From: an uncultured Staphylococcaceae bacterium
Lineage (GTDB): Bacteria > Bacillota_I > Bacilli_A > RFN20 > CAG-826
Reading direction: 5' to 3'
Length of the DNA: 64,000 bases
Assembly: GCA_964386745.1 (NCBI GenBank)
Contig: CAYLSZ010000001.1
Span: 9,179 to 73,178, forward strand
A program made the translations under genes and the position numbers. Below are positions 877 to 63,494 of the stretch, piece by piece. Numbering within the stretch: the first letter of the stretch is position 1; every line of letters begins with the position of its first letter. The notes beneath the pieces were generated by a model, which saw only the letters and a list, made by a program, of their open reading frames with translations, was not told the DNA's origin and made no database searches.

Positions 877-912
877 ATTTTCAAAAACCCTGCAGAACCC
901 CCATATTTTACT
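877..912 (+). repeat. CTGCAG-core palindromic repeat, copy 1 (intergenic, relA/hisS)
   Basis: TTTTCAAAAACCCTGCAGAACCCCCATATTTTAC. Confidence 0.8.
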
Positions 913-8167: not shown

Positions 8168-8212
8168 TTTTTGAAGAAAAACCCTGCAGATCTAAGGTAT
8201 TTTTTCAAAAAA
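8167..8212 (+). repeat. CTGCAG-core repeat, copy 2 (intergenic, xseB/dinB)
   Basis: GTTTTTGAAGAAAAACCCTGCAGATCTAAGGTATTTTTTCAAAAAAC. The AT-rich arms are inverted repeats of each other. Confidence 0.85.
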
Positions 8213-8236
8213 CTTAAACATTCCCTATTTAAAATT

Positions 8237-9424
8237 ATGAGTAGAATTATACTTCACATCGACCTAGACGCTTTCTTTTGTAGAGCTGAAGAAATTAAAA
8301 ATCCTTCTTTGGAGGGAAAGGCTTTTATTGTCGGCGGTGAAGGTAGAAGAGGTATCGTTTCTACTTGCTCATATAAAGCTAGAGAATATGGGATTCATAG
8401 TGGAATGCCTACATTTCAAGCAAAAATGTTATGTAAAAACGTCTTAGTTTTACCAGCAGATTTTCGCTTTTACGATCTGTTATCTAGAGAATTTATAAAC
8501 TATTTAAAACAGTATTCAAACAAGATTCAACAAGCCTCAATTGATGAATGTTTTTTGGATTTTACTGATTATTATAATGCTCATAAAAACATGCCAATGA
8601 CCACATTGTTAAAGAACATCCAACAAGGTTTATTTAAAAAGACGTCTTTAAAATGTTCAATTGGAGTTGGTACTACAAAATTTATCGCGAAGATGGCAAG
8701 TGACTATCAAAAACCAATGGGCATAACAATAATTAGAAATCGCGATATTCATAAAATGCTTTTCCCTTTACCAATTGAAAAATATTTCGGAATTGGAAAG
8801 AAAACATCGGCCAAATTACGTGAAATAAATATCAATACAATCGGCGATTTATATAACGCAATCAAGACTCAAGGAGAAGTCCCTAGTATTCATGGACAAG
8901 ATATTCTCGATGAATTAGATGGCAAAACTTCTAATCAAATTAACGATGAACATATCGATCCTAAATCGATTGGTATGTCGCGAACTTTAGATTCTGATAC
9001 AAATAATGAAACAAGGATTATTGAAGTTTTAAAACACGAAATTCAAATGGTTGTTTCATCAATGGTTGAGCAAAATATGTTTACAAAAACCATTTCAATA
9101 TCGATGAAAGATGCAGCTCATGAGACAAACTTTAAAGCAAAATCATTCTCGTATACATTCGATGAATATACTGATGACTTAGAATTTATCACTAAAGAAG
9201 CAATCGATTTATTTAAACGTTCGTATCGTAACGAAGTTATCCGTTTAATTGGCTTTACCGTGAAAAATATCAAAGAAAAACATGGCGTTGTTAAACAAAT
9301 GACTTTCGAAGACTTCCAAAAACACGAAAAAGAAAATAATTTATATCTTCTAGTAAACGAATTAAACCGCGAATCTCATAAGCAACTTTTTAAGCGTGCT
9401 AGCGACATTTTAAAGGATGAATAA
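8237..9424 (+). CDS. dinB: DNA polymerase IV (Y-family)
   Basis: MSRIILHIDLDAFFCRAEE matches the DinB N-terminus. The track ORF begins 22 codons earlier, inside a repeat copy, so the internal ATG at 8237 is the more likely start. Confidence 0.88.
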   Translation: MSRIILHIDLDAFFCRAEEIKNPSLEGKAFIVGGEGRRGIVSTCSYKAREYGIHSGMPTFQAKMLCKNVLVLPADFRFYDLLSREFINYLKQYSNKIQQASIDECFLDFTDYYNAHKNMPMTTLLKNIQQGLFKKTSLKCSIGVGTTKFIAKMASDYQKPMGITIIRNRDIHKMLFPLPIEKYFGIGKKTSAKLREININTIGDLYNAIKTQGEVPSIHGQDILDELDGKTSNQINDEHIDPKSIGMSRTLDSDTNNETRIIEVLKHEIQMVVSSMVEQNMFTKTISISMKDAAHETNFKAKSFSYTFDEYTDDLEFITKEAIDLFKRSYRNEVIRLIGFTVKNIKEKHGVVKQMTFEDFQKHEKENNLYLLVNELNRESHKQLFKRASDILKDE

Positions 9425-10253
9425 CGTGTTAATTACTGAAGCTATTGATAAATTTATTGAGTCAAAAACCTCAACAGGTCTAGAAGAATCAACTATCGAT
9501 TCTTATAAAGCTGATTTGAGAATATTTTTGAAATATTACCCACGAATCGAGTCGACGGAAGACTTAAATAACAATCTTTTCAACTATTTCATTTTTGACC
9601 AACAATTAGATGAACTTTCGAACGCTACAATCGCTCGTAGAATTGCTGTTTTAAAGGAATTTTTCTTATATTTAGAAGAACAAAATATATGTAAAGATTT
9701 AATAAAAACTATATCGTTGCCAAAAGTTGAAAGGCATCCAATAATCACATTAACAAAAGAAGAAATAGAAGTCTTTTTCAATGTATTTAACGAGAAAAAA
9801 ATAAACGAACTTCGCGATAAACTTTTATTTTCATTAATGTATTATTCAGGGCTAAGACTAAACGAAGCAATTAGCCTCAAAATCGACGATATAAATGCAA
9901 AAGAACAACTAATTTCTATCGAAAATTTTCGCCTTGTTCCAACCTGTACCCAACTAATCGATGTCTATATAAAATATATAGACATGCTCAAAAATAAAGA
10001 ACTTTTTGGTCAAACTGATTATCTATTTTTTAATCTCAAAACCCATAAACCTTTATCAATCGTGGCTATCAATAAAAACTTCAAAAAATATGTATCTCGG
10101 GCAGGCATAAATAAGAATATTACCCCTCATTCCTTACGCGATTCTTTCGCTATTCACCTCCTTCAAAACGGATGCAATATCCACGCATTAAAAGAACTAT
10201 TAGGACATAAAAATCTCAATACTACTTTAGAATATGAGAAATATTTAAAATAG
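9417..10253 (+). CDS. tyrosine site-specific recombinase of the XerC/XerD family
   Basis: 278 aa with an N-terminal SAM-like domain and C-terminal HSLRDSFAIHLL...LGHKNLNTTLEYEKY carrying the R-H-R-Y catalytic residues. Confidence 0.8.
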   Translation: MNNVLITEAIDKFIESKTSTGLEESTIDSYKADLRIFLKYYPRIESTEDLNNNLFNYFIFDQQLDELSNATIARRIAVLKEFFLYLEEQNICKDLIKTISLPKVERHPIITLTKEEIEVFFNVFNEKKINELRDKLLFSLMYYSGLRLNEAISLKIDDINAKEQLISIENFRLVPTCTQLIDVYIKYIDMLKNKELFGQTDYLFFNLKTHKPLSIVAINKNFKKYVSRAGINKNITPHSLRDSFAIHLLQNGCNIHALKELLGHKNLNTTLEYEKYLK

Positions 10254-10321
10254 GAGTAAAATATAGGCGTTTGGTTTGTATATCAAACGAAACTTTTATA
10301 AAATTATCCGGAGGATAAAGT

Positions 10322-13383: not shown

Positions 13384-13440
13384 TTTACCCCCCCAACTTT
13401 TATAAATACGAACGTACTTGTAAGTGAGGAGGATAAAATT
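13384..13440 (+). promoter_or_regulatory. conserved upstream element TACCCCCCCAACTTTTATAAATACGAACGTACTTGTAAGTGAGGAGG (copy A of three)
   Basis: Near-identical element upstream of comEA (59289..59340) and of the C39-like gene (38428..38480). It ends in the RBS GGAGG 8 nt before the ATG. Confidence 0.7.
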
Positions 13441-13956
13441 ATGAATTCTCGTAAAGAAATCGTCTATAGGGTTAACTACGATTTACAAGATTCTTTTTTA
13501 GAACATCTAGCTCACGTAAATAAGTTAATCAAACAGACAAACAATGGTGTGCCCGATTTCGAAGTGAAACAGGGTGAAATAGTGATATTTCGACAATATG
13601 ACAATATCTTGAAGAAATATTATGCATCCTATGGATTGAGTTTATCTTTAAGTAATGAGTTTAAGACCTATGCTTTAATTTGTCCGCTCATTATGATCGG
13701 CCCTGGACAGATAAACCACTATGGGATCAATATCGGCAAAATAGAAGAACTACACGCTAGAAATTCATTTATCGGCATTATCGAAAAAATCGGTCCAATC
13801 GATAAAGCAGATATTTTAAATGAAAAAGTCGATGAGCATTTTAAGACAGTCGTAGTCGATAATAATCTAGTAAATAGGGTATTAGTTAACTATCGAGATT
13901 ACTTAGAAAAACTAGCTGAATCTAAGATTTGTGTCAAAGAAGCGGTTGTTTGCTAG
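13441..13956 (+). CDS. hypothetical protein (171 aa) preceded by the shared com-box-like element
   Basis: Clean ORF with a strong RBS. I recognise no family. Confidence 0.6.
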   Translation: MNSRKEIVYRVNYDLQDSFLEHLAHVNKLIKQTNNGVPDFEVKQGEIVIFRQYDNILKKYYASYGLSLSLSNEFKTYALICPLIMIGPGQINHYGINIGKIEELHARNSFIGIIEKIGPIDKADILNEKVDEHFKTVVVDNNLVNRVLVNYRDYLEKLAESKICVKEAVVC

Positions 13957-30138: not shown

Positions 30139-31401
30139 TTAACAACGATAATCATCCAATTGTTTTTTGGTTGATGGTTTCTTTAATTTCTTAATTGCTT
30201 TAGCTTCGATTTGACGAATTCTTTCACGAGTGACACCAAATTCCTTTCCAACTTCTTCTAAAGTACGTGGTTTATTATCATCGATTCCATAACGTAAACG
30301 GATGACTCTTTCTTCTCTATCGGTCAAATCGCTCATTGCATCATATAATGCATTACGAATAAGAGCTTGGGAAGTATATTCAGTAGGTGAGATACTATCT
30401 TTATCTTCTACGAAATCGCCTAAGTGTGAATCGTCTTCTTCACCAATTGGGCTTTCTAAAGAAACTGGTTCAAGAGCAATTCTTTGAATTTCGCGAATCT
30501 TGTCTGGAGTCATAGCACCATGCATTTCTTCGCTAATTTCTTCAGCGGTTGGATCACGTCCATATTTTTGAACGAGTTGTCTTTGAACTCTTGTAATCTT
30601 ATTAATAGTTTCGACCATGTGAACAGGGATACGAATTGTACGGGCTTGGTCGGCAATTGCACGAGTAATAGCTTGTCTAATCCACCAAGTTGCATAAGTT
30701 GAAAATTTAAAATTCTTGGTATAATCGAATTTTTCGACAGCTTTCATTAAACCCAAGTTGCCTTCTTCGATTAAGTCTAAGAATTGCATACCGCGACCGA
30801 TATAGTGTTTTGCAATCGAAACGACTAAACGTAAGTTGGCGGTAATTAATTTTTTCTTGGCATTGGTATCACCCGCTAATATACGTTTAGCAAGTTCTTG
30901 TTCTTCGCTAGCTTTTAATAAAGGTACGCGCCCAATATCTTTTAAATATAATTTAACACTATCAGTGATTTTTCCATCGGAAGCTTCATAAACATCTAGA
31001 TTATTAGTATCGATATTAGCAACGCTTTCTTTTTCTTCATCCGAAACATCATCGAAACCATCATCGATTTCATCGAACTCATCCATGTCTTCATCTTCGC
31101 TAAATGCGCTATCATCGATTTCATCTAAATCGACATCTTCATCACCTGCTTCAGAAACGATTTGATAGCCGATAGTTTTAAAGTGTTCGAAAACTTTTTC
31201 TAAATCATCATCAGTCAAATCAAGATAATTTGTCGCTTCGATAAATTCATCTTGATCAAAGGTTTTTGTCTTTTTACCTTTTGATTCAAATTCTTTAACA
31301 ATTGTGCCTAATGATTTAATAGTTTCTTCTTCACTCGAATCGAAATCGAGTTCATCTAAAACTTCGTTTTCTCCTTCAACTTTTTTACTTTTTCTAGCCA
31401 T
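30139..31401 (-). CDS. sigA: RNA polymerase primary sigma factor
   Basis: Acidic region 1 followed by regions 2 to 4 ([37 protein letters not shown]). Confidence 0.95.
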
Positions 31402-37221: not shown

Positions 37222-38424
37222 TTAACCAAAATAATGCAAGTACTGGTTCCTATAATTCTTTATTTTTTCGACATCAAATCCAATATCCAAGATTTTAGAG
37301 AAATTATCTTGCAAATATAGATACATAAAGAAATGGAAAAGCATATAATTGGTGTTTATAAACCCGGTAAATCCTAAATAAATTAAGACAATCGCAATCG
37401 TTATAAACATCAAGAAATACTTCTTAAAATTATGGAATCCTATGAAATTATACGATTCGTTATTTAACTCTCTTAACATTCGTTTAAAAGTATCGATTGG
37501 CGTATCTTTTTGCTTAAATAATGTCTTTTCGATAAGTTCTAGTCGCGCTTTTTTACTTAGCCGCACCCTTTGTTCATATAGCTTGAAGGCAACTAAAATT
37601 AAGAACGTCATTCCGACAAGTAAGATGTTATAAACATCGTTAATTCCAAGGATAAATAAACCAAATACCAATATCATCGCTGACCCAATAAATTTTACTG
37701 GAGTCGTGATAAGCGAATATTTATAGTTAATTAAGTTCTCGTAATAATCGCTGAAATTATTCTTTAATTCAGTGATTCGATCGCTATTAACAACGTTTTT
37801 ATCAAAATTCTTCAAACAATATATAACGACCTTCTGATACAAAAACTCAAATACTACAAAGGCTGTAAATAAAAGGACAGGGATGAGGAAACTATAATCT
37901 GGATCGATAAATAATAAAGCAGTAAATAAGGCAAGAAAACTAATTATTTGTAAAATTATCGATAGAACCATGAATCGCTTTGGATATACTTTGACTTTTT
38001 GAGGTTTAAAATCACTTCCTCTTGCTTCTAAAACCTCTAAAACTTCACCATTCCAAAGCTTGAAAAGATTTTGATGCGAAAGTTTATATATTCCAGTAGC
38101 AGGATCATAAATTTTGACGCTCTTTTTCAAAATCTTTTTAAGGACGACCATATGTAACTGACCATCTTTGCCTTTAAATAGGATAAGCATCGGCGTCTTT
38201 TTCTTATTATTAAATAAGTCATTCTTATCCTGATAGCGATAGGCAAGTAGCGTTACCCCTTCATTTTCAGCAATTTTGATTAACTCACCTAAGGTCACCT
38301 TCCTTTTTATATCCCCGTGAGGATAATAAAGGAAATCCTTGTTCTTGTAAGTCATCGCAAGCAGCATCTTTAATGATGTGATACCACAATCGTTATCACC
38401 GAGCTGTTTAATGTAATATTTCAT
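37222..38424 (-). CDS. membrane protein with an N-terminal papain-like C39 peptidase-like domain and no ABC ATPase domain
   Basis: QLGDNDCGITSLKMLLAMTY matches the C39 catalytic Cys motif, and a His lies downstream (GQLHMVV). Six or more TM helices follow. The likely start is the ATG at 38424 behind RBS GGAGGA; the track start is a GTG 6 codons upstream. Confidence 0.65.
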   Translation of the reverse strand: MKYYIKQLGDNDCGITSLKMLLAMTYKNKDFLYYPHGDIKRKVTLGELIKIAENEGVTLLAYRYQDKNDLFNNKKKTPMLILFKGKDGQLHMVVLKKILKKSVKIYDPATGIYKLSHQNLFKLWNGEVLEVLEARGSDFKPQKVKVYPKRFMVLSIILQIISFLALFTALLFIDPDYSFLIPVLLFTAFVVFEFLYQKVVIYCLKNFDKNVVNSDRITELKNNFSDYYENLINYKYSLITTPVKFIGSAMILVFGLFILGINDVYNILLVGMTFLILVAFKLYEQRVRLSKKARLELIEKTLFKQKDTPIDTFKRMLRELNNESYNFIGFHNFKKYFLMFITIAIVLIYLGFTGFINTNYMLFHFFMYLYLQDNFSKILDIGFDVEKIKNYRNQYLHYFG

Positions 38425-38427
38425 GGA

Positions 38428-38480
38428 AAATTCCTCCTTCACTTACAAGTACGTTTGAATTTGGAACTTTTTGCAAAAAA
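38428..38480 (-). promoter_or_regulatory. conserved upstream element (copy C): ...AAAGTTCCAAATTCAAACGTACTTGTAAGTGAAGGAGG
   Basis: Shares the core AAACGTACTTGTAAGTGA(A)GGAGG with the elements at 13384..13440 and 59289..59340. Confidence 0.7.
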
Positions 38481-38502
38481 AATGCGATTTTAATAAATCG
38501 CA
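38472..38502 (-). terminator. rho-independent terminator of rpsU
   Basis: On the minus strand, hairpin TGCGATTT-ATTA-AAATCGCA followed by TTTTTTTT. Confidence 0.65.
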
Positions 38503-46349: not shown

Positions 46350-47357
46350 TTATTTAATATGCGCAAGGATTTCATTTACGATATAGTCGAGATATGTAAT
46401 GACCTTGCTATAGTCCATACGTTTTGGACCGATAACAGCAATTTTTCCAAAGCTCTTATTGCTTTCAGGAAGAGAAATTTCTTTACTTACAATTGAAACT
46501 TCGCCGCCGGTATCATCTTTATCTTCATTAATAGTTAGTAATTCGTTTGATTTATTGATAATTTCTTCTAGTTTGACTGGATCATCGAATAATCCATAGA
46601 TTTTTTTAATTTCTTCAGCATCGCTAGCAAATTCAGGTTGACTGAGTAAGTTATCTTTGCCGATTACTTCGCTACGACTAGCTGCAAATTCGAAGAAGAC
46701 TTTCATTAAAGCGTTATAGAGATTACTATAATCTTCTAAATAACTCTCTAAGATTGGCTTCATCGTTTCAAGTTTAGCTGTTAAATCACTAATTTTTGTT
46801 CCTTTTAGTCTTTCATCCAAGATTTCGATACATTTTGTTAAGTCGCTCATCTTATTTTTCTCGGTTATAACGAACGTTTTATTTTCGACATAACCGCTAT
46901 CAGTAATAAAGATGACCGTACAAGTTTTAGTATCTAATGGAACGAGTTGAATATTAATTAATCTTTCGTTGTTAGCCGATGGACCTAAGACAACTGAGGC
47001 AAGATTTGTCATATGAGACAAAATCGCGCAACTTTCTTTTAAGACATCGTTAACTGATTTAGAGGAATCGAAGATTTGACGAAGTTGATTTTTAAAATTA
47101 TTATCGACCGTGTTGTTTGTAAAGTTTTGGGCGTAAAATTTATAGCCTTCTGTACTTGGAACACGTCCGCTACTCGTATGAGTTTTTTCAAGCAATCCTT
47201 CACTTTCTAGCTCAGCCATATCATTTCGGATCGTTGCGCTACTATAATCGAGCTTATATTTATCTTTTAAATACTTACTTCCGACCGGATTAGCTTGGCG
47301 TATAAAATCTTCTACGATTAACTTTAAGATTTGATATTTTCTTAAATTTATATCCAC
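46350..47357 (-). CDS. hrcA: heat-inducible transcription repressor HrcA
   Basis: Aligns with B. subtilis HrcA from a GTG start (V-DINLRKYQILKLIVEDFI...ATIRNDMAELE). The track start is another GTG 7 codons upstream that overlaps the RBS GGAGGAAAC. Confidence 0.88.
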   Translation of the reverse strand: MDINLRKYQILKLIVEDFIRQANPVGSKYLKDKYKLDYSSATIRNDMAELESEGLLEKTHTSSGRVPSTEGYKFYAQNFTNNTVDNNFKNQLRQIFDSSKSVNDVLKESCAILSHMTNLASVVLGPSANNERLINIQLVPLDTKTCTVIFITDSGYVENKTFVITEKNKMSDLTKCIEILDERLKGTKISDLTAKLETMKPILESYLEDYSNLYNALMKVFFEFAASRSEVIGKDNLLSQPEFASDAEEIKKIYGLFDDPVKLEEIINKSNELLTINEDKDDTGGEVSIVSKEISLPESNKSFGKIAVIGPKRMDYSKVITYLDYIVNEILAHIK

Positions 47358-47371
47358 AAAGTTTCCTCCAT

Positions 47372-47397
47372 TTAGCACTCTTTTTCCGAAGTGCTAA
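47372..47397 (-). promoter_or_regulatory. CIRCE operator, copy 1
   Basis: TTAGCACTT-N8-GAGTGCTAA inverted repeat immediately 5' of the hrcA RBS. Confidence 0.85.
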
Positions 47398-47401
47398 CAA
47401 T

Positions 47402-47430
47402 AATATACTCGGAACATTTAGCACTGTCAA
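47402..47430 (-). promoter_or_regulatory. sigma-A promoter of the hrcA-grpE-dnaK-dnaJ operon
   Basis: TTGACA, 17 nt, TATATT, positioned between and overlapping the two CIRCE elements. Confidence 0.65.
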
Positions 47431-47444
47431 CAAAAAGGTGCTAA
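47418..47444 (-). promoter_or_regulatory. second, weaker CIRCE-like inverted repeat
   Basis: TTAGCAC-N13-GTGCTAA, overlapping the -35 box. Confidence 0.5.
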
Positions 47445-47535: not shown

Positions 47536-48648
47536 TTAAATTAACTTCAAAACAATAGTATCAAGGATGGACATGCCTTTTTTAGTTAGCACTATATTGT
47601 CGCTATTAATTTCTAGAAATCCTTCATCTACTAATGACTTCAAGGTTTCAGATTGAGATTCTAATAAATCGCTTCCAAATCTATTTTTGTATTCACTTAG
47701 CGATACGCCTTCGTTGGTTCTAAGATTTAACATTAAAAACTCTAAAAGTTCTTTGTCCTTATCGATTTCTTCCTTAAAATCGACTCTTTCGCCTCTAATA
47801 TATTTTGATATATTAGAAGTAATTTTATAGCGGTTTTTCGACAAAAACCCTGCAGAACCCAAACCAATTCCTAAAAACTCGTTGTCTTTCCAATAATTAA
47901 AATTGTGCTTACTTTGATAACCCGGCTTACAAAAATTACTGATTTCATAATGTATGAAACCACTTCTTTCAAGTTCATCGACAATGAAATTATAGATTTC
48001 TCGATCTTTATCTTCTTCTAATGGCTTAACACCTTGATTATAAAAAGTAGTTCCTTTTGAAACGGTCAAACTATAAATTGAAACGTGTGGAACATCCATT
48101 TCGACGATAAATTTTATATCGTTTTTAATGTCCTCAATCGTTTCGCCAGGGAGACCATATATAAAATCAAGGTTAATATTTTGAATATATTTCTTAATAA
48201 AATTTATAAGATTTTTAAAATCTATCTTCTTTCTAGATAGTCCTTTTAACGTATTTTCTTTTATGGATTGAATGCCAATTGAAAGGCGATTTACACCATA
48301 TCTATTAATTAGTTTTAGAAATTCTTCATCAATATCCTCAGGATTGGCTTCAATTGTAAATTCATAGTTTTCTTTTACCCTTAAATCTACTAAAGATATT
48401 AATAAATTTATTAGATTCTCATGCTCTAGACACGAAGGAGTTCCGCCACCAATATATATAGTTTTAAAAGGCTCAAACTCCATTTTTACCTTCGCTATAT
48501 CCGAAAAAAGTTCCTGCATATAAGGAACTTCAAAACACTTTTGTTTAATTAATTTAGTAAAGTCGCAATATGGACAAATATTTCGACAAAAAGGAATATG
48601 AATATATAAACTATTAATTTTTTTCAAATTATTTGGTTTTATCTTCAT
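47536..48648 (-). CDS. hemW: radical-SAM heme chaperone HemW (HemN-like, oxygen-independent coproporphyrinogen-III oxidase family)
   Basis: N-terminus YIHIPFCRNICPYCDF (CxxxCxxC). Synteny lepA-hemN-hrcA. Confidence 0.85.
   Translation of the reverse strand: MKIKPNNLKKINSLYIHIPFCRNICPYCDFTKLIKQKCFEVPYMQELFSDIAKVKMEFEPFKTIYIGGGTPSCLEHENLINLLISLVDLRVKENYEFTIEANPEDIDEEFLKLINRYGVNRLSIGIQSIKENTLKGLSRKKIDFKNLINFIKKYIQNINLDFIYGLPGETIEDIKNDIKFIVEMDVPHVSIYSLTVSKGTTFYNQGVKPLEEDKDREIYNFIVDELERSGFIHYEISNFCKPGYQSKHNFNYWKDNEFLGIGLGSAGFLSKNRYKITSNISKYIRGERVDFKEEIDKDKELLEFLMLNLRTNEGVSLSEYKNRFGSDLLESQSETLKSLVDEGFLEINSDNIVLTKKGMSILDTIVLKLI
47833..47878 (+). repeat. CTGCAG-core repeat, copy 9 (inside hemW, antisense)
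   Basis: GTTTTTCGACAAAAACCCTGCAGAACCCAAACCAATTCCTAAAAAC. Confidence 0.85.
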
Positions 48649-48904
48649 TGCTTAAGTCATCGAATTGTTTAAGAGTTTCTTCATCATCAATGACTTCTAA
48701 GACGCTATCTAAATTTTCTTCAGCAAGTTCAGCTTGTGTCTTTTCTATAGGTTTCTCTTCTCCGTCTTTGTTTTTATTTATAACGAATTTTCTAATTAAA
48801 AATACGGCTAAAGCGATAATAGCAAAGAAAGCGATAATAAATAATAAGATTACAAATGTGCTTTCATACCAGGCAGCTAAGATTGTTAATAAATTCGCGT
48901 TCAT
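48629..48904 (-). CDS. small membrane protein (91 aa) with one TM helix and an acidic C-terminus
   Basis: Hydrophobic segment FVILLFIIAFFAIIALAVFLI. Overlaps the hemW start. Confidence 0.45.
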   Translation of the reverse strand: MNANLLTILAAWYESTFVILLFIIAFFAIIALAVFLIRKFVINKNKDGEEKPIEKTQAELAEENLDSVLEVIDDEETLKQFDDLSNEDKTK

Positions 48905-48907
48905 AAA

Positions 48908-50113
48908 TTACTTCCTTTCAATTGGTGTATAAATAAATTTATTTTTAAGTGGTTCTTTTCGATAAAATCCAAGATTTACGAGCTTATCCATACTCGATCT
49001 AGCGGTCTCATATGAACAAGAATTAAATTTTTGAAATTGTCGAATCGTATACTTCGAACCAAGTGTACAATGTCGCGCATAAAACGCGGCTTGCATCGGT
49101 CTTAATTCAGGGATTAGCTCTTGTAAACTAATTTCTAGTTGTCGGGCCTCTTCTTCTGACAAACTATTACGAGTTATAGATATCGCTAATGGACCAGAAC
49201 TTACTACCGAACGAGATAAGTTTTCTATAGGAGTCGAATCGTTAGCTTCATCTAAAGAGTAGGTTTCTCTTTGAATCGTCTTAGTTTTGAAAGAAATTAT
49301 ATCATTTAATATATTATCCATACATATATCAATTTTCGTAAGCATATAATTTAAAAAATATGTAAGATCGAGATTGATTTGGCATTCTTCTATTGTTTTT
49401 TCGATCTCTTCGATATTGGATAATACACTTTCGACATTAATTAATGATGAAACAGGACCAAAATCATAATGAGCAAGGATTTCTTTAAATAATAAAATTC
49501 CTAATTCTTCATTATAATTTTCAAATGGTTTTGTATATAAAACGTAATACAGAGCACAACTTGCTTTAACAAAAGCCGAAATGTAGTTATTTTTGATAAA
49601 TGCGTATAAAGAATTGGTTACCTCTTCTTTAGAATTACTTAATTCGGTTTCTATAGATAAATCAGCTGACATTTTTTTGATAAAATCATCATTAATTTCG
49701 TTAAAAACGATATCTTTTATATCGTTTAGTGCATTTACATAGTGAACTAAAATGCCTTGTTTTTCATTTACGTTTATTAAATTTAAGGCAACAGTGCTTA
49801 ATATATTTCTTTGTTCTTCTTTGATGAGTTCTTGTTTAGCCGATTCATTCAAATTCTCAAAATTACTCATCGCTTTAAATAGTCTTCTTTCAATAGCGTT
49901 AACTTTTTGAGAAATAACAGGGGTTAAAACTACGCTATAGTTTTTCCCATCAGCATTATTAAGATTTAAGGACATAGAAAAAAAGTTACGATATTCCAAA
50001 ATCTTACCCCAAACGCTATCAATATTTCTCATTTGTAGAGCATCAATAACATCTTGTTGAGTTGCGTAAATATCGTTACTAAATTTAGCAGGCAAATCTG
50101 ATCTTTCTTCCAT
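48908..50113 (-). CDS. hypothetical protein (401 aa) with a C-terminal winged-helix-like segment
   Basis: Long clean ORF. It occupies the slot that gpr, spoIIP and yqxA fill in Bacillus. I recognise no family. Confidence 0.55.
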   Translation of the reverse strand: MEERSDLPAKFSNDIYATQQDVIDALQMRNIDSVWGKILEYRNFFSMSLNLNNADGKNYSVVLTPVISQKVNAIERRLFKAMSNFENLNESAKQELIKEEQRNILSTVALNLINVNEKQGILVHYVNALNDIKDIVFNEINDDFIKKMSADLSIETELSNSKEEVTNSLYAFIKNNYISAFVKASCALYYVLYTKPFENYNEELGILLFKEILAHYDFGPVSSLINVESVLSNIEEIEKTIEECQINLDLTYFLNYMLTKIDICMDNILNDIISFKTKTIQRETYSLDEANDSTPIENLSRSVVSSGPLAISITRNSLSEEEARQLEISLQELIPELRPMQAAFYARHCTLGSKYTIRQFQKFNSCSYETARSSMDKLVNLGFYRKEPLKNKFIYTPIERK

Positions 50114-55756: not shown

Positions 55757-56713
55757 TTATAGATTTAAGATAAACATCTCTAAAGCGTATACGCTATCTG
55801 CTACTTCGTTATGTTTAATTTTATAATCGAGTTGATATAGTTTCTCAAGCAAAACGGCTATCTCGTCATTTTTATATTTAGCAATATTTTTAAAATCGAA
55901 ATATAAGCGACCAGGTTTAACCTTCAATTCTGAAGCAATTTGTTCACGACTATATCCTGCTTTTTTAAGATAAGAGATTTTATCAAGATATATAAGTTGC
56001 TTAGCTAAACTATTAATAACAGCTACCGGTTCAACCTTGTTTTTAGCTAGTTGTAGTTCGCGAAAAACCTTAAGCGACATCTCAATATTTTTTTCTAATA
56101 AATAATTAGAAAGAACATAGAATTTTTCTTCACTATATTCGGTGATAATGTTTTTAACATCTTCAATAGTAATGTCGTTATCCTTATAAATGATAAGTTT
56201 ATCGACTTCACTTAAAAATGTTCTTAAATTATAGTTCGTTCTTCTTACAATCTCGTTTATCGCGTCAGGCGTTATTTTTATTTTCTTATTATCAAAATAT
56301 TTTTTGACATAAGCTGGCCATTCTTTTTCCGATAATGGTTCAAGTTTTTTGACATTTTTTGAATCGATAGCCTCATATAAAACGCCTTTTGGTTCGGTGT
56401 CGCTATAATTAACAAAGATTAAATATACTGAAGGATCATTACTTTTTATAAAATCAATTAAATCTTTGTTTGGCTCAGATTTAAACTTTTTTTCTATATC
56501 ATCGAAATCAGCAATTAAAACTTTAGTTTCAAAAATAAATCCGGATTGGCATATATCAAAAACAAAATCCTTCAATTCGAATTCCTCTCTTCGATAATCA
56601 ATTAGATTAATATCTTCATCTTTAAATTGCTTTTCTATGAAGCCATCTAAATAGAGACCGACACGATCGTAATCACTTCCATAAAATAAATAAGTCACGG
56701 CAACATTATACAA
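55757..56713 (-). CDS. holA: DNA polymerase III delta subunit
   Basis: 318 aa. Position between rpsT and comEC as in Bacillus, and a clamp-loader fold. Confidence 0.78.
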   Translation of the reverse strand: MYNVAVTYLFYGSDYDRVGLYLDGFIEKQFKDEDINLIDYRREEFELKDFVFDICQSGFIFETKVLIADFDDIEKKFKSEPNKDLIDFIKSNDPSVYLIFVNYSDTEPKGVLYEAIDSKNVKKLEPLSEKEWPAYVKKYFDNKKIKITPDAINEIVRRTNYNLRTFLSEVDKLIIYKDNDITIEDVKNIITEYSEEKFYVLSNYLLEKNIEMSLKVFRELQLAKNKVEPVAVINSLAKQLIYLDKISYLKKAGYSREQIASELKVKPGRLYFDFKNIAKYKNDEIAVLLEKLYQLDYKIKHNEVADSVYALEMFILNL

Positions 56714-56716
56714 TAA

Positions 56717-58738
56717 TTAAGCCAAAAATTTATAAGTGATTGAACCTTCTAAGTCAGTTCTTCGATAAGTTATTCCAAGTTGATTTAATCGACTGATTAC
56801 ATCTTCACTTGGGTGACCATATCGATTGTTTAAACCACAAGAGATTATAGCTACTTCTGGATTGATATATTGCAAGAATGCCAGTGAGGAACTTGAACTA
56901 CTTCCATGATGGCCAAGCTTTAAATAATCGACATCCAAGGTATAGTTATTAATAATCTCTTCCTCAACAGTTGTGGTTGCATCACCCATAAATAAGAACG
57001 AATTATCAGCTACACTCAAATGTAAAACTAGACTTCGATCATTTTCATCTTGCGACGTGTCATAAATATAAGGATTTAAATTTTCAAAAGTTAAATTCCC
57101 ACTTACATAAGGGAACACAGAATTATAATCAACTATATTCTTTACCTTAAAATTCTCAGTTAGACTTTCTAGTGCACCGTAGTGGTCATAGTCATAATGG
57201 GTGATAAATACTGCCTCTAAAGAATAGATTCGATTACTTTTTAAAAACGGGATAAGCGAGTTAGTCGCAAGGTCATAACTTGTAAGTCCTCCAGTATCTA
57301 TAAGATACGCTTTGTTTCTATATCTAATTAATGTGCTATCTCCTTGCCCGACATTGATATAAGTTACTTGGAAGGTAAACGTATTCTCTATCGGTAAGAT
57401 ATAAATTCCAAGTAACAATATAGCTGAAAGTGCGACATTTTTGGAGATAAACAAAATTCGAAATTCGTGAAAATAAACGAAGATCTGCAGGGTTAAATAG
57501 TAAAAACAAAGGAAAAATGGATTTAACGCTGGAATGTTTATTGTAAAGATTGAGAAGTCAATCGCATCTAAAACTTTATAAAATCCAACAAATATCGCGT
57601 TAGTAAACGGAAGTTTAATTCCATAAAATCCTACGAAGCAAAATACGAATATAATTTTGAATAAAAACGTAAATGTATAAGAGAATAACATATTCAAAAT
57701 ATTGAATCCGTTATAAACACTTATAGTATAGGGAAGGAAAGTTGTGGCTATCAAAACCCTTCTTTTAACTGCCTGAATATATCTATTCCCTCGATTGAGC
57801 ATTGCCTTAGAAAATTGCATCACTATCATTACAAGTAAAGGTAAGAAGAAACTTGCTCGATAGACCAATGATGAACTAACTAATAGCAATATAAAGTAAA
57901 CTAAACACTTAAAGTTAAACTTATCTTCATAGGCGATTTTCCTATAAAAGATAATGTTTAGCGTAAAGAATAAAAAGACTCTAATGAATGTAAAACGGTA
58001 GATATTAAATATAAAAAACGGCGTGCATAGTAATAGAGAAAAGATTCGTGCGTGCTTTGTATCTAGAAAGTAGCCAAATAATTTAGCAATACCATAAAGA
58101 ATAAAATTTAAAAATAAACCGGTACTAGAAAATAGATGTGCAATCATTAGCTTATCGCTAATCGAAGAAACGCTATCAGTTTCCCCTAAAATCATGGCAT
58201 TAAATATTGCAAGTGCTTCTTCACTCGTAAATATCTTATTTACACTAGTCAAATTGGCTTCAAAATTTAGAGGGAAGTCCCACAAGACCTCTATATTGCT
58301 AGCCGTTATTATCCTGAACACGTTCTGATTATTAAGGTAATTTTGATAATCGAAGCTACTTTCATAGCTCGAAAATGATAATTCGCTCAATGTTCCTTCA
58401 ATTCTAACGACATCAAATAGTTTTAATTCCGTCGTGTAACAATAAATCTTTTCAGTAAGTGTTCGGATAATAACGTAGCTACTTCCCTTTTTAATAACTA
58501 TTCCCGTTATCGAAGCATATTGGATTAAGGATAAAATTTTGGGTAAAAATCTTAAAAATACGCCTAAACAAAAGATTGATATGACTATTACACTGCCCTT
58601 TGCATTTATATTTTTGGTTTTAACTAATCGAATTATTAGCAATACAAGTAGCGCTAATCCTATTACTATGTAGTCGAGTTTAGTAATAATTAGGCCGGCA
58701 ATTAACGCTAAAAGTAAAGCAAAATAATCTCTCATCAA
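56717..58738 (-). CDS. comEC: competence DNA-uptake channel protein ComEC
   Basis: 673 aa polytopic protein with a C-terminal metallo-beta-lactamase domain (HYDYDHYG, LKLGHHGS). Confidence 0.85.
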   Translation of the reverse strand: MMRDYFALLLALIAGLIITKLDYIVIGLALLVLLIIRLVKTKNINAKGSVIVISIFCLGVFLRFLPKILSLIQYASITGIVIKKGSSYVIIRTLTEKIYCYTTELKLFDVVRIEGTLSELSFSSYESSFDYQNYLNNQNVFRIITASNIEVLWDFPLNFEANLTSVNKIFTSEEALAIFNAMILGETDSVSSISDKLMIAHLFSSTGLFLNFILYGIAKLFGYFLDTKHARIFSLLLCTPFFIFNIYRFTFIRVFLFFTLNIIFYRKIAYEDKFNFKCLVYFILLLVSSSLVYRASFFLPLLVMIVMQFSKAMLNRGNRYIQAVKRRVLIATTFLPYTISVYNGFNILNMLFSYTFTFLFKIIFVFCFVGFYGIKLPFTNAIFVGFYKVLDAIDFSIFTINIPALNPFFLCFYYLTLQIFVYFHEFRILFISKNVALSAILLLGIYILPIENTFTFQVTYINVGQGDSTLIRYRNKAYLIDTGGLTSYDLATNSLIPFLKSNRIYSLEAVFITHYDYDHYGALESLTENFKVKNIVDYNSVFPYVSGNLTFENLNPYIYDTSQDENDRSLVLHLSVADNSFLFMGDATTTVEEEIINNYTLDVDYLKLGHHGSSSSSSLAFLQYINPEVAIISCGLNNRYGHPSEDVISRLNQLGITYRRTDLEGSITYKFLA
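57462..57510 (-). repeat. CTGCAG-core repeat, copy 12 (inside comEC, sense)
   Basis: Minus strand reads TTTGTTTTTACTATTTAACCCTGCAGATCTTCGTTTATTTTCACG. Confidence 0.75.
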
Positions 58739-59283
58739 TCAGTTAAGATAATATAGTTTCTTAATTTCGTATAAGTTGCGTTACCAATTCCGCTTACATT
58801 CATGACGTCTTCTAAAGTTTGATATAAGCCGTTTTCGTTACGATAAGAAATAATGCTTGAACTAATCGAATCACCAATGCCATCGATAAAAGTAAGTTCG
58901 CTAGCATCGGTATAAGAGTTGATATTTACTTTTGTAATTTCTTCAGTCGAACAAATATCAGTTGGATCATATCTTGGTGGGATATAATAGGTCATATTTT
59001 TTTCGACTGTAGCAGTTGGAAAATAAGCTCTTGTATCGGCTCTATCAGTAATACCACCAGCTTTATCGATTAAATCTTGCATCGTCGAGCCTTCTTCAAG
59101 CAAATAGTTTCCTGAACTTACAACGTATCCTGATATTCCTATCGAGTTACGCGTAATTTCGTCTTCTGTTGCTACGACTGTGGCTGCCGTAGTAACATTT
59201 GTAAAGTCGAATACTTGCATGATTAAAAGTCCGACAATCGTCACGATAACAACGCCTAAAATTATCTTTAAAGTTAAAGTCAT
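58735..59283 (-). CDS. comEA: competence DNA-binding protein ComEA
   Basis: N-terminal TM anchor, SLBB-like middle region and C-terminal helix-hairpin-helix (NVSGIGNATYTKL). Translationally coupled to comEC. Confidence 0.8.
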   Translation of the reverse strand: MTLTLKIILGVVIVTIVGLLIMQVFDFTNVTTAATVVATEDEITRNSIGISGYVVSSGNYLLEEGSTMQDLIDKAGGITDRADTRAYFPTATVEKNMTYYIPPRYDPTDICSTEEITKVNINSYTDASELTFIDGIGDSISSSIISYRNENGLYQTLEDVMNVSGIGNATYTKLRNYIILTD

Positions 59284-59288
59284 CGTTC

Positions 59289-59340
59289 ACACCTCCTTTC
59301 ACCTACAAGTACGTTTGATAATTGAAAAGTTTGGGGGTAC
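59289..59340 (-). promoter_or_regulatory. conserved upstream element (copy B): GTACCCCCAAACTTTTCAATTATCAAACGTACTTGTAGGTGAAAGGAGG
   Basis: Matches the elements at 13384..13440 and 38428..38480. Lies between the greA terminator and the comEA RBS. Confidence 0.7.
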
Positions 59341-59377
59341 AAAATAAAAAAGTTTCTATTTTCGAGGAATAGAAACT
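59341..59377 (-). terminator. rho-independent terminator of greA
   Basis: AGTTTCTATT-CCTCGAA-AATAGAAACT hairpin, followed on the minus strand by TTTTTATTTT. Confidence 0.7.
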
Positions 59378-59426
59378 TCAATATTTATTAGATTATAACG
59401 ATGAAATTTGAATAAAATTAATTTGA

Positions 59427-63282: not shown

Positions 63283-63459
63283 TCCTTAAAAATTATCTAG
63301 GAACGACTTTTCGCCGCGGTACCATCCTACTTTCTAGTAATTTACTAGACTCTTAATTTAGGTAAATAGTTTCTAAGGAAAGTGGCTCATATCTATCGTT
63401 CTTGTATATTTTCACCAGCCATATACTCTCTAAATAGACTCAATAGATATTTCTTTTTC
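63283..63459 (-). ncRNA. T-box riboswitch leader of alaS
   Basis: The minus strand carries the conserved T-box sequence AGGATGGTACCGCGG (plus coordinates 63313..63330). Upstream Stem I has an AGAGAG box and a GGCUGGUGA distal motif; GCU occurs in the putative specifier region. Confidence 0.75.
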
Positions 63460-63465
63460 GCGATT

Positions 63466-63494
63466 ATTATAGTGATTTTATCACTATAAGTAAA
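63466..63494 (-). promoter_or_regulatory. putative sigma-A promoter of the alaS T-box leader
   Basis: TTTACT, 17 nt, TATAAT, overlapping the 3' end of mnmA. Confidence 0.5.

What the first reader, a model, noticed from the sequence alone, without database searches (positions are those of the whole stretch)
13384..13440. Conserved ~45-nt upstream element shared by comEA-comEC, a C39-peptidase membrane protein gene and an orphan ORF: candidate competence regulon promoter or leader
Seen in the sequence: three and only three genes in the window are preceded, flush against their RBS, by the same element. At 13384..13440 (+) it reads TACCCCCCCAACTTTTATAAATACGAACGTACTTGTAAGTGAGGAGG, ahead of the 171-aa ORF. 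At 59289..59340 (-) it reads GTACCCCCAAACTTTTCAATTATCAAACGTACTTGTAGGTGAAAGGAGG, ahead of comEA-comEC. At 38428..38480 (-) it reads AAAGTTCCAAATTCAAACGTACTTGTAAGTGAAGGAGG, ahead of the C39-like membrane protein. The 22-nt core AAACGTACTTGTA(A/G)GTGA(A)GGAGG is virtually identical. Two copies also share the upstream TACCCCC..AACTTTT block, and each follows an independent rho-independent terminator. So these are autonomous transcription units with a common signal. That comEA-comEC is one of them points to a competence regulon whose control element is not a ComK box (AAAA-N5-TTTT) and only loosely resembles the streptococcal cin-box TACGAATA; copy A does contain TACGAAC. It could be an alternative-sigma (SigH/ComX-like) promoter with a conserved leader, or an operator. 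The deoB leader (10270..10321) shares the flanks AACTTTTATAAA and GGAGGATAAA but lacks the core.
Basis: partly seen in the sequence, partly recalled or inferred. Interest (0 to 1): 0.8.

Follow-up and report, generated by a model that had tools for sequence, protein, structure and literature searches.

The report
Shared control signal before DNA-uptake genes
Three genes in this uncultured gut bacterium, including the DNA-uptake operon comEA-comEC, carry the same short upstream signal, whose core is conserved before comEA in related species; it is most likely a dedicated promoter of a kind not yet described, which hints at a hidden competence programme.

Summary
The 18-mer AAACGTACTTGTARGTGA occurs three times in 64 kb (0.14 expected), each time flush against a strong ribosome-binding site. 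The genes are comEA-comEC-holA, a C39-peptidase membrane protein gene that heads ybeY-cdd-era-recO, and a 171-aa ORF.

Comparison with syntenic contigs of six related uncultured gut Bacilli (ComEC 40-50% identical) shows that the 22-nt core is species-specific. What is conserved before comEA is two boxes. One is a C-run, (T-rich)TACCCC(C). The other is C-n-A-CTTGTA, 21-23 nt downstream of the C-run and 11-13 nt before GGAGG. The roughly 18 nt between them are not conserved.

The module starts directly after the greA or rpsU terminator. No sigma-70-like promoter fits in those spacers, and no consensus RNA structure or Rfam family matches. ComK boxes, the cin-box, and the SigH and Mycoplasma sigma-20 consensus sequences all fail.

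My best reading (about 0.45) is a dedicated non-sigma-A promoter: a -35-like C-box and a -10-like CTTGTA box with a very short leader, read by an alternative sigma or activator not encoded in the window. A repressor operator or an RNA-level operator remain live rivals.

The 171-aa ORF is a real gene (12 synonymous, 1 non-synonymous change against a close strain) with a MazF-like fold. The regulon could not be extended, because the rest of the genome could not be reached.

The parts
13386..13440 (+). Copy A, whole module: TACCCCCCC (13386-13394), spacer, core GAACGTACTTGTAAGTGA (13410-13427; CTTGTA at 13417-13422), SD GGAGG (13428-13432), ATG at 13441
   Evidence: Conserved in a 94.6%-identical strain (L001/L002), apart from a C7 to C6 change and two substitutions outside the core.
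13441..13956 (+). 171-aa gene downstream of copy A: a MazF/PemK-fold protein with N- and C-terminal extensions
   Evidence: 12 synonymous and 1 non-synonymous difference against L001. Remote family of about 171-aa proteins with an invariant C-terminal Cys. AF2 with the alignment gives pLDDT 71.9, and all top PDB matches are MazF toxins, TM(target) 0.60-0.72. No Pfam or NCBIfam hit.
59284..59339 (-). Copy B, whole module: TACCCCC (59339-59333), spacer, core AAACGTACTTGTAGGTGA (59316-59299; CTTGTA at 59309-59304), extended SD GAAAGGAGGTG (GGAGG at 59296-59292), ATG at 59283
   Evidence: Orthologous two-box modules lie before comEA in L006, L008, L097 and L098; L096 keeps CTTGTAT only.
59341..59379 (-). 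greA intrinsic terminator (12-bp stem plus U-run) that ends 1 nt before copy B
   Evidence: -11.5 kcal/mol, z -5.1. The simple scan missed it because the stem has fewer than 3 G-C pairs.
55757..59283 (-). comEA (58735-59283), comEC (56717-58738) and holA (55757-56713), overlapping or abutting: the unit driven by copy B
   Evidence: Pfam and NCBIfam: HHH_3/SLBB and TIGR01259; ComEC_Rec2 TIGR00361 and Lactamase_B; DNA_pol3_delta_C.
38425..38456 (-). Copy C: core AAACGTACTTGTAAGTGA (38456-38439; CTTGTA at 38449-38444), SD GGAGG (38437-38433), ATG at 38424. No C-run; TTTTTTTTGCAAAAAGTTCC stands in its place.
   Evidence: The orthologous site in L010 reads CACTACTTGTATATGAAGGGGG, also without a C-run.
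38483..38502 (-). rpsU intrinsic terminator immediately upstream of copy C
   Evidence: z -3.1
37222..38424 (-). C39-peptidase domain plus membrane domain protein (400 aa, no ATPase domain), first gene of a co-directional ybeY-cdd-era-recO string
   Evidence: Pfam Peptidase_C39 at 6e-15. The N-terminus matches the mycoplasma 'Mbov_0121 family peptidase-domain ABC transporter' at 1e-13. The family has 14 clusters of 398-401 aa, always in rpsU-C39-ybeY synteny.

Best explanation
The element is a dedicated promoter module that the housekeeping sigma factor does not read.

Its ancestral form sits between the greA terminator and comEA and has two boxes. One is a C-run, (T-rich)TACCCC(C)(A)AC, at the -35 position. 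The other is C-n-A-CTTGTA at the -10 position. About 18 non-conserved bases separate them. Transcription would start a few bases before the extended Shine-Dalgarno sequence, GA(A)(A)GGAGG, giving an mRNA with a leader of only about 15-20 nt.

A lineage-specific alternative sigma factor, or an activator-dependent RNA polymerase, would recognise it. It would act in the manner of streptococcal sigma-X, staphylococcal or listerial sigma-H, or Mycoplasma sigma-20, and so switch on DNA uptake (ComEA, ComEC).

In this species the downstream half, or the whole module, has been copied in front of two more genes: a C39-peptidase membrane protein gene that heads ybeY-cdd-era-recO, and a MazF-fold protein gene. 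That makes a small co-regulated set.

Shown: the sequence facts, the conservation, the spacing, the absence of other promoters, and the absence of a conserved RNA fold. Inferred: that the boxes are -35 and -10 elements, the transcription start site, the existence of the sigma factor or activator, and the link to competence.
For: 1. Non-chance, gene-specific repeat: 3 hits against 0.14 expected, all flush with the SD. No further copy appears in about 262 kb of window plus close relatives, except at the orthologous sites and one doubtful dnaK site.
2. Phylogenetic footprint. In six species with ComEC only 40-50% identical, information content peaks at -27..-22 (CCCCCA) and -3..+5 (C-n-A-CTTGTA) relative to CTTGT. 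About 18 low-information positions lie between the peaks. The distance from the C-run end to CTTGT is 21-23 nt in all six C-box copies. CCCCC is otherwise almost absent from these 26-33% GC sequences. It is the only one in 44 kb of L006, and one of three sites in the window.
3. Geometry. The module begins 0-12 nt after the terminators of greA and rpsU, and 13 nt after the greA stop in L097. About 50 nt remain before the SD, so an independent promoter must coincide with the two boxes.
4. No sigma-70-type promoter lies in the B or C intergenic regions. The best sigma-A match has 3-5 of 12 mismatches, at inconsistent positions.
5. No conserved RNA structure. RNAalifold gives zero pairs. The window copies fold with z of -1.1, +0.6 and -1.0. 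SD accessibility of the three genes (0.27, 0.50, 0.61) lies within the spread of other genes, 0.02-0.89. There are no Rfam matches.
6. Precedent. All known Firmicute late-competence control is transcriptional. The M. genitalium sigma-20 regulon has promoters ending 7-26 nt from the ATG, includes a SunT-type peptide-secretion ABC transporter (sunT, MG_390) and small unknown ORFs, has a candidate site before ComEC, and uses a motif that differs even between M. genitalium and M. pneumoniae (PMC4446450, PMC6105099).
Against: - No sigma or activator gene for it is in the window. The second rpoD in relative L010 has the same DNA-recognition regions as the first.
- The boxes resemble no described sigma consensus.
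- The constant 11-13 nt distance from CTTGTA to the SD, and the 18-25 nt of contiguous identity among the three copies in one genome, exceed what a -10 element needs. They would suit an operator or an RNA-level site equally well.
- If CTTGTA itself is the -10 hexamer, the spacer is 21-23 nt, too long for a sigma-70-family promoter, and the start falls on the SD. The model needs C-n-A-CTT as the -10 element, with a spacer of about 18.
- Copies before the C39 gene (window C and L010) lack the C-run.
- L096 has TAGGGTA where the others have TACCCCC.
- There are no transcript data.
Confidence: 0.45

Rival explanations
1. Operator for a DNA-binding repressor or activator, on a weak sigma-A promoter. 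The roughly 18-bp core (AAACGTACTTGTAAGTGA; ACTT-GT-AAGT is a small inverted repeat) would be a transcription-factor site covering the start site. The variable AT-rich hexamers in the spacer would serve as a poor -10. The C-run would be a second, -35-overlapping site for an activator.
For: - The contiguous identity among copies within one genome (18-25 nt) has the length of an operator.
- Copy A has TATAAA 10 nt upstream of CTTGT. It lies inside AACTTTTATAAA, a motif also found before deoB and lepA.
- L097, L098 and L096 have TANNNT hexamers 4-8 nt upstream of CTTGT (read from the sequences).
- In L096 the C-box position carries TAGGGTA, the reverse complement of TACCCTA. A factor site tolerates that better than a -35 element does.
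Against: - The candidate -10 hexamers are not conserved in position, and L008 has none.
- The sigma-A scan finds nothing, and the -35 candidates are very poor.
- Across species only C-n-A-CTTGTA is kept, which is short for a dimeric operator, and the small palindromes differ from species to species.
- No regulator gene is adjacent.
Confidence: 0.2
2. RNA-level translational operator. The genes are transcribed from upstream, by read-through or an overlapping promoter. CUUGUA(U/A), held 11-13 nt before GGAGG, would be the binding site of an RNA-binding protein or small RNA that gates ribosome access to an otherwise very strong SD.
For: - The distance from CTTGTA to the SD is fixed at 11-13 nt in all nine copies from three gene families, although a promoter does not require this.
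- Copy A has no terminator upstream, so it is probably co-transcribed with the ABC operon.
- In relatives L016, L017, L021 and L097 the comEA SD is the 3' arm of a terminator-like hairpin (CCUCC...GGAGG plus a U-run). Post-transcriptional masking of comEA therefore exists in the wider clade.
Against: - Efficient terminators stand directly upstream of B and C, which would leave little transcript to regulate.
- There is no conserved structure and no Rfam family.
- This model gives the equally conserved C-run, with its fixed spacing, no role.
- No candidate RNA-binding regulator was identified.
Confidence: 0.2
3. SD-sequestering hairpin or RNA thermometer. The C-run would act as an anti-SD that pairs with GGAGG and keeps read-through transcripts silent.
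For: - In L008, UACCCCC and GGGGGUA pair perfectly, AACAAGU pairs with ACUUGUU, and the leader folds with z -3.5. L097 (z -3.1) and the C39 leaders of L012 (z -3.3) and L014 (z -1.8) also fold so that the SD is paired.
- comEA in the window has a relatively masked SD, 0.27 unpaired.
Against: - In five of six C-box copies CCCCC faces GGAGG, giving a central C-A mismatch where CCUCC would be expected.
- L097 carries the C-run and also a separate perfect ACCUCCUU anti-SD, so the C-run is not the anti-SD there.
- The window copies are not unusually stable (z -1.1, +0.6, -1.0), and there is no consensus structure.
- The orphan and C39 SDs are as accessible as those of average genes.
- Copy C and L010 have no C-run.
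- The model does not explain CTTGTA.
Confidence: 0.07
4. A by-product without function: a recent local duplication of a ribosome-binding-site cassette, or chance similarity among AT-rich leaders.
For: Copies A and B are also similar in the 'spacer' (AACTTTT.A..T.A.C.AAACG), which is what a copied block would show.
Against: - The two boxes are kept before comEA across species whose ComEC is only 40-50% identical and whose spacers have fully diverged.
- The C39 copy is shared with L010.
- The core is unchanged between strains that differ by 5.4% overall.
- The chance expectation is 0.14.
Confidence: 0.05

Closest known systems
Mycoplasma genitalium sigma-20 (MG428) regulon and its promoter TTGTCA-N18/19-ATTWAT (PMC4446450, PMC6105099)
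   Same: - It is a small regulon in a genome-reduced relative of the Bacilli.
- Its promoters abut the start codons: the promoter ends 7-26 nt from the ATG, and one mapped start lies 9 nt after it.
- Its members include a SunT-type peptide-secretion ABC transporter (sunT, MG_390) and several small unknown ORFs, and there is a candidate site before ComEC (MG_316).
- The motif diverges quickly between sister species (TTGTCA against TTGGCR), as the core does here between the window and L008/L010.
- The spacer is long, 18-19 nt.
   Different: - The sequence motif does not match: 2-5 mismatches of 12 at inconsistent positions.
- If TTGTA were taken as the sigma-20 -35 element, the -10 would fall on the start codon.
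- The sigma-20 regulon centres on recA and ruvAB, which were not seen here.
- No MG428-like gene was found in the window.
- The genes here use strong SD sequences.
Streptococcal ComX (sigma-X) cin-box / com-box, TACGAATA with an upstream T-tract
   Same: It is a dedicated signal placed close to the SD of late competence genes, including comEA-comEC (celA/celB). There is no canonical sigma-A -35 element. T-rich DNA lies upstream.
   Different: TACGAATA is absent: the best matches have 2-3 mismatches at positions from -22 to -82. The element here has a conserved second box, the C-run, at about -35. No comX gene is in the window.
Sigma-H-dependent competence promoters of Staphylococcus and Listeria, RMAGGRWWW-N11-12-RRMGAAW (PMC4754846, PMC3486894)
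   Same: An alternative-sigma two-box promoter drives the comE and comG operons in non-streptococcal Bacilli.
   Different: The consensus is not met: 4-6 mismatches of 16.
ComK boxes of Bacillus (AAAA-N5-TTTT dimers); consensus from my own knowledge
   Same: An activator-dependent signal lies before comE.
   Different: AAAA-N5-TTTT is absent from six of the nine upstream regions. Where it is present, it lies in the T/A-rich terminator tail and is not paired.
ECF (group 4) sigma promoters, for example B. subtilis sigma-W TGAAAC-N16-CGTA (consensus from my own knowledge)
   Same: 'AAC' ends the upstream box in four of six copies. CGTA, CGTC or CGAC precedes TTGTA in the window, L098 and L097. 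This gives AAC-N15-CGT(A/C).
   Different: The CGT is not conserved: L006 has CCAC, L008 and L010 have CTAC, and L096 has CATC. The invariant part is CTTGTA. The spacing is 15 rather than 16-17. The similarity is weak and may be fortuitous.

Membership tests
ComX/sigma-X cin-box promoter | TACGAATA at about -10, a fixed short distance upstream of the start site | tested here: not met
   The best matches have 2-3 mismatches, at -22 to -82 from the ATG, and differ in every copy.
ComX/sigma-X cin-box promoter | A comX gene in the genome, and the box before comG, comF, dprA, ssbB and coiA | not testable with these tools
No sigma other than rpoD lies in the window.
Sigma-H competence promoter | RMAGGRWWW-N11-12-RRMGAAW | tested here: not met
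   4-6 mismatches in all nine upstream regions. The consensus is taken from PMC4754846.
Mycoplasma sigma-20 promoter | TTGTCA-N18/19-ATTWAT ending about 7-26 nt before the ATG | tested here: not met
   2-5 mismatches at inconsistent positions. The geometry, close to the ATG, is similar.
ComK box | Two AAAA-N5-TTTT boxes on the same helix face | tested here: not met
   Absent in six of nine regions, and never paired.
Sigma-70 (sigma-A) promoter | TTGACA-16-18-TATAAT with at least 9 of 12 matches, A at position 2 and T at position 6 of the -10 | tested here: not met
   No site in the B or C intergenic regions. The best matches have 3-5 mismatches.
Known cis-regulatory RNA (riboswitch, leader, thermometer; Rfam 15) | A match to a covariance model, or a conserved secondary structure | tested here: not met
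   No match at gathering threshold in the window. Only noise at E up to 10 around A, B and C. RNAalifold finds zero consensus pairs.
SD-sequestering leader | The SD is paired with an upstream anti-SD more than in other genes, and the pairing is kept by covariation | tested here: inconclusive
   True for some relatives (L008, L097, L016, L017, L021). Not true for the window copies. CCCCC against GGAGG has a central mismatch, and no covariation is available.
Two-box alternative-sigma promoter (generic) | Two conserved blocks at fixed spacing, with a non-conserved spacer, immediately upstream of the regulated genes | tested here: met
   Information peaks at -27..-22 and -3..+5, spacing constant to within 1 nt in six copies.
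Two-box alternative-sigma promoter (generic) | A transcription start 5-9 nt downstream of the -10 box, and dependence on a cognate sigma factor | not testable with these tools
   No transcript data and no sigma gene are available.

The most novel reading that the evidence does not exclude
An undescribed alternative sigma factor, a functional analogue of ComX, sigma-H or sigma-20, exists in this uncultured, genome-reduced gut Bacilli clade (neighbours of Candidatus Onthovivens). It would read a promoter unlike any known one: a C5-7 run at -35, about 18 nt of spacer, then C-n-A-CTTGTA. Its regulon would couple DNA uptake (ComEA/ComEC) to a C39 peptide-processing membrane protein and a MazF-fold protein, that is, competence linked to peptide signalling and growth arrest or fratricide. 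The homopolymeric C-run differs in length between near-identical strains (7 against 6) and between copies (4-7). It could in addition act as a slipped-strand, phase-variable switch of competence.
Probability: 0.3. Interest if true: 0.7.

Novelty: new variant of a known kind. Interest (0 to 1): 0.5.

Why it matters
Nothing is known about gene regulation or natural transformation in the uncultured, genome-reduced gut Bacilli that sit next to the Mollicutes.

A conserved, dedicated signal in front of comEA-comEC says that DNA uptake is under specific control there. It also provides a search motif for defining the whole regulon from metagenome-assembled genomes. If the reader of the signal is a new sigma factor, the known set of competence sigmas (sigma-X, sigma-H, sigma-20) gains a promoter type with an unusual C-run -35 box.

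Two of the co-regulated genes also give concrete hypotheses about how competence is signalled and paid for in these organisms. One is an NBD-less C39 peptidase membrane protein. The other is a MazF-fold protein with no visible antitoxin.

If the element turns out to be an ordinary repressor operator, the finding is a routine regulon motif.

Tried and rejected
- **Genome-wide scan for the core plus SD.** I searched 185,579 species-representative genomes for AACGTACTTGTANGTGA-N0-3-GGAG. It gave only 3 chance hits, in Acidobacteria and Saccharibacteria.
- **Exact look-ups of window proteins.** These were meant to recover the 78-kb source contig or its sister contigs. They failed, so the regulon could not be extended to comG, comF, dprA, ssb or coiA.
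- **Metagenome scan with a ComEC profile.** Generic ComEC genes swamped it. Only L016-L018, L021 and L022 were near enough to be informative.
- **Viral-contig scan for the 17-mer.** It gave 9 hits, all inside coding sequence without an SD. The element is not a phage element.
- **Rfam at gathering and permissive thresholds.** Nothing matched the element.
- **The C-run as an anti-SD.** Rejected as the general explanation.
- **TTGTA as a sigma-A or sigma-20 -35 element.** Rejected, because the -10 would then fall on the start codon (sequence reading).
- **TATAGT or TAAGTG after TTG as a sigma-A -10.** Rejected. Only L006 has T at the last position, and the start would fall inside the SD.
- **The second rpoD in L010 as the cognate sigma.** Rejected. 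It is 75% identical to the first, with identical regions 2.4 and 4.2.
- **Other consensus sequences.** LexA (Cheo), cre, CodY, CRP and NrdR were compared by eye only. None fits, and none was formally tested.
- **Single-sequence AlphaFold of the 171-aa protein.** Unusable, pLDDT 44. The 9-sequence alignment gave a usable model.
Full report
**1. The observation**

The pattern AAACGTACTTGTARGTGA, allowing up to 3 mismatches, finds exactly those three sites. They are 13410-13427(+), 38439-38456(-) and 59299-59316(-). Chance predicts 0.14 sites, and none of 100 shuffles reached three. Each site is followed after 0-3 bases by an extended Shine-Dalgarno sequence, GA(A)(A)GGAGG, and then after 8 more bases by an ATG.

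The genes behind them are as follows.
- **Copy B:** comEA (HHH_3/SLBB, TIGR01259), comEC (TIGR00361, metallo-beta-lactamase domain) and holA, which overlap or abut.
- **Copy C:** a 400-aa protein with an N-terminal C39 peptidase domain and a membrane domain but no ATPase domain. It comes first in a co-directional string ybeY-cdd-era-recO.
- **Copy A:** a 171-aa ORF with no Pfam or NCBIfam hit.

Copies A and B also share TACCCCC. CCCCC occurs at only three places on both strands of this 32.6% GC window, and two of them are these.

Four details need correcting.
- Terminators precede B (59379-59349 plus a U-run, z -5.1) and C (38502-38483, z -3.1). Copy A has none. It starts 5 nt after the stop codon of an ABC permease gene.
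- The C39 gene starts at the ATG at 38424, not at the GTG inside the motif.
- The 12-mer that copy A shares with the deoB leader is a separate recurrent motif.
- The 22-nt identity is specific to this species (section 3).

**2. The organism and the limits of the search**

No window protein could be traced to its source contig. The nearest ComEC and C39 homologues come from gut metagenomes. The few that carry names are 'Bacilli bacterium', 'Firmicutes bacterium', 'Candidatus Onthovivens sp.' and 'Coprobacillus sp.'.

The best NCBIfam matches for ComEA and for the C39 domain include mycoplasma families, MAG0490 and Mbov_0121. A relative has a 1.03-Mb contig. The organism is therefore an uncultured, probably genome-reduced gut member of the Bacilli.

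The species-representative genome collection does not hold it. A scan there for the core plus SD returned only three chance hits.

**3. Phylogenetic footprinting**

Syntenic contigs (…alaS-ruvX-DUF1292-greA-comEA-comEC-holA-rpsT-fmt…) were obtained for six further species whose ComEC is 40-50% identical to the window's. These are L006, L008, L096, L097 and L098, plus L016 at 40% from the metagenome scan.

Their greA-comEA spacers share nothing with the window except two blocks.
- **The C-run.** It reads (T-rich)TACCCC(C..) and is present in the window, L006, L008, L097 and L098.
- **The second box.** It reads C-n-A-CTTGTA(T/A) and is present in all of them. L016 has CTTTGTAT.

I aligned the sequences without gaps, anchored on CTTGT. 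The information content of the six orthologues then peaks at -27..-22 and at -3..+5, with about 18 low-information positions between. The distance from the end of the C-run to CTTGT is 21-23 nt in all six C-box copies, copy A included. The distance from CTTGT to GGRGG is 11-13 nt in all nine copies.

In the 26% GC contig L006, the comEA C-run is the only CCCCC in 44 kb of sequence counted on both strands.

The C39 gene carries the second box only in the window and in the closest relative. L010 (C39 49% identical) reads CACTACTTGTATATGAAGGGGG. More distant relatives (L012-L014) lack the box, and none of the C39 sites has a C-run. The 171-aa gene with its full module is found only in the window species and in a 94.6%-identical strain.

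So comEA is the ancestral target, and the other two genes acquired the module later. Within a genome the copies resemble each other more than they resemble their orthologues. The window has AAACGTACTTGTA(A/G)GTGA..GGAGG. L008 and L010 have CACTACTTGT(W)(W)AT(A)GAAGGGGG. This is what co-evolution with one trans-acting reader, or copying of a cassette, would produce. Whether L008 and L010 come from one species was not verified.

**4. A DNA signal or an RNA signal**

Several results argue against a structured RNA.
- RNAalifold finds no consensus pair in the six C-box leaders.
- The window leaders fold no better than shuffled sequence, with z of -1.1, +0.6 and -1.0.
- The predicted accessibility of the SD in the three genes is 0.27, 0.50 and 0.61 unpaired. 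That lies within the spread of 26 window genes, 0.02-0.89.
- Rfam gives nothing, even at E up to 10.

The C-run is not a convincing anti-SD either. In five of six copies it faces GGAGG with a central C-A mismatch. L097 carries the C-run and also a separate perfect ACCUCCUU anti-SD.

SD masking does occur in the wider clade, however. In L016, L017, L021 and L097 the comEA SD forms the 3' arm of a terminator-like hairpin followed by a U-run. Read-through from greA is evidently kept silent there. That fits a need for a separate way to switch comEA on.

The geometry argues for a promoter. The module begins 0-12 nt after the terminators of greA and rpsU, or 13 nt after the greA stop in L097, and ends at the SD about 50 nt later. 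An independent promoter must therefore coincide with the two boxes.

No sigma-70-like promoter is present there. Two conserved blocks at fixed spacing over a free spacer is the classical signature of -35 and -10 elements. Taking C-n-A-CTT as the -10 element gives a spacer of about 18 nt. The start would then fall a few bases before GA(A)GGAGG, leaving a leader of about 15-20 nt.

**5. Comparison with known systems**

The nine upstream regions were scored against five known consensus sequences (consensus sequences, and from my own knowledge for the ComK box and the cin-box).

| Consensus | Result |
|---|---|
| cin-box TACGAATA | 2 or more mismatches, at varying positions |
| Sigma-H, RMAGGRWWW-N11-12-RRMGAAW | 4-6 mismatches |
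| Sigma-20, TTGTCA-N18/19-ATTWAT | 2-5 mismatches |
| Sigma-A, TTGACA-N16-18-TATAAT | 3-5 mismatches |
| ComK box, AAAA-N5-TTTT | absent in most regions |

None is met.

The closest analogue in how it works is the M. genitalium sigma-20 regulon. Its promoters end 7-26 nt from the ATG. It has a SunT-type peptide-secretion ABC transporter (sunT, MG_390), small unknown ORFs and a candidate site before ComEC. Its motif already differs between M. genitalium and M. pneumoniae (PMC4446450, PMC6105099).

There is a weak resemblance to ECF promoters, AAC-N15-CGT(A/C). The CGT is not conserved across species, so I give it little weight.

**6. The recruited genes**

The 171-aa ORF is a real gene. It differs from L001 at 13 nucleotides, of which 12 are synonymous.

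An exhaustive HMMER search found eight remote relatives of similar length. The invariant residues are Cys81, Pro82, Gly99, Lys122, Tyr151 and the C-terminal Cys171. AlphaFold with that alignment gave pLDDT 71.9, and about 84 in the beta-rich core. Every top PDB match is a MazF or PemK toxin, with TM-score on the target of 0.60-0.72 and Foldseek E of about 1e-3. No antitoxin-like gene precedes it.

The C39 protein keeps the Q..DCG and H..V..DP motifs of active C39 peptidases (sequence reading). It belongs to a small family of 14 clusters, 398-401 aa long, always found between rpsU and ybeY.

A DNA-uptake operon, a peptide-processing membrane protein and a toxin-fold protein under one signal recall the streptococcal link between competence, pheromone and fratricide. 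That is an analogy and not a result.

**7. Verdict**

| Reading | Confidence |
|---|---|
| Dedicated two-box promoter read by an alternative sigma or activator not encoded in the window | about 0.45 |
| Repressor or activator operator on a weak sigma-A promoter | about 0.2 |
| RNA-level translational operator | about 0.2 |
| C-run anti-SD hairpin | about 0.07 |
| Non-functional duplication | about 0.05 |

Three points argue against the best reading:
- the constant distance from the second box to the SD;
- the long identity among copies within one genome;
- the absence of the C-run before the C39 gene, and in L096, which has TAGGGTA there.

I rate the element a new variant of a known kind, a competence-type promoter or box in an unstudied lineage. 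Interest is moderate.

The decisive data are a full-genome motif scan, a search for the sigma or activator gene, and 5'-end mapping.

Noticed in passing
window 63296-63469 (-): A T-box leader lies upstream of alaS. It scores 87.4 bits, E 9e-19, full model length. That is just under Rfam's gathering score of 93, so the default scan missed it.
   Followed up: partly
window 13388-13394, against L001 and L002: The homopolymeric C-run of copy A has 7 C in the window and 6 C in two contigs of a 94.6%-identical strain. Copy lengths across loci range from 4 to 7. This is a possible slipped-strand (phase-variable) tract at the -35 position.
   Followed up: partly
window 10291-10302 (+), 13395-13406 (+), 52030-52041 (+): AACTTTTATAAA occurs three times (0.09 expected): before deoB, inside copy A, and before lepA, where it is part of the 16-bp palindrome AACTTTTATAAAAGTT. 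It may be a separate promoter or operator motif.
   Followed up: partly
window 13441-13956 (+): The 'orphan' ORF has a MazF/PemK-like fold, with a helical extension of about 40 aa at each end. Its remote family of about 171-aa proteins ends in an invariant Cys. No antitoxin gene is adjacent.
   Followed up: yes
L016, L017 and L021 (upstream of comEA); L097 9405-9452: In more distant relatives the comEA Shine-Dalgarno sequence is the 3' arm of a terminator-like hairpin, CCUCC...GGAGG followed by a U-run and then the ATG. The greA terminator and the comEA ribosome-binding site are therefore fused.
   Followed up: partly
L096 about 9400-9410: At the position of the C-box, this relative has TAGGGTA, the reverse complement of TACCCTA, while it keeps CTTGTATGTAAGGAGG. 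No model explains this.
   Followed up: no
L010 14053-15321 and 16018-17274: Two full-length rpoD genes, 75% identical with identical DNA-recognition regions, flank trmK in a close relative. The window has only one rpoD (30139-31401), followed by trmK, a NIF3-family gene and lytB.
   Followed up: partly
window about 47418-47444 (-) and the adjacent bases upstream of hrcA (46350-47378): CIRCE-like inverted repeats (TTAGCAC-N13-GTGCTAA, and a second TTAGCACTT...) overlap a good TTGACA-N17-TATATT promoter before hrcA-grpE-dnaK-dnaJ.
   Followed up: no
window 898-902 (+): The only other CCCCC in the window (GAACCCCCATATTTTACTTTAAATA) lies in the 85-nt spacer before hisS-aspS. It has no CTTGTA box, and its meaning is unknown.
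   Followed up: no
L014 and L015 2303-2330: The grpE-dnaK spacer of a distant relative reads AAACAAGTTT..AAAACTTGTATAAGGAGG. It has a CTTGTAT-SD arrangement plus an 8-bp hairpin, ACAAGUUU with AAACUUGU. This is probably chance or a processing site.
   Followed up: no
window 48629-50113 (-): A conserved pair of unannotated genes (401 aa and 91 aa, no significant Pfam domain) lies between lepA and the hemN-like gene. The pair is present in all syntenic relatives, at 462-473 aa plus 84-98 aa.
   Followed up: no
window 8171-10253 (+): A dinB (Pol IV, IMS family) gene is followed, with overlap, by a XerD-like tyrosine recombinase gene, just upstream of deoB.
   Followed up: no
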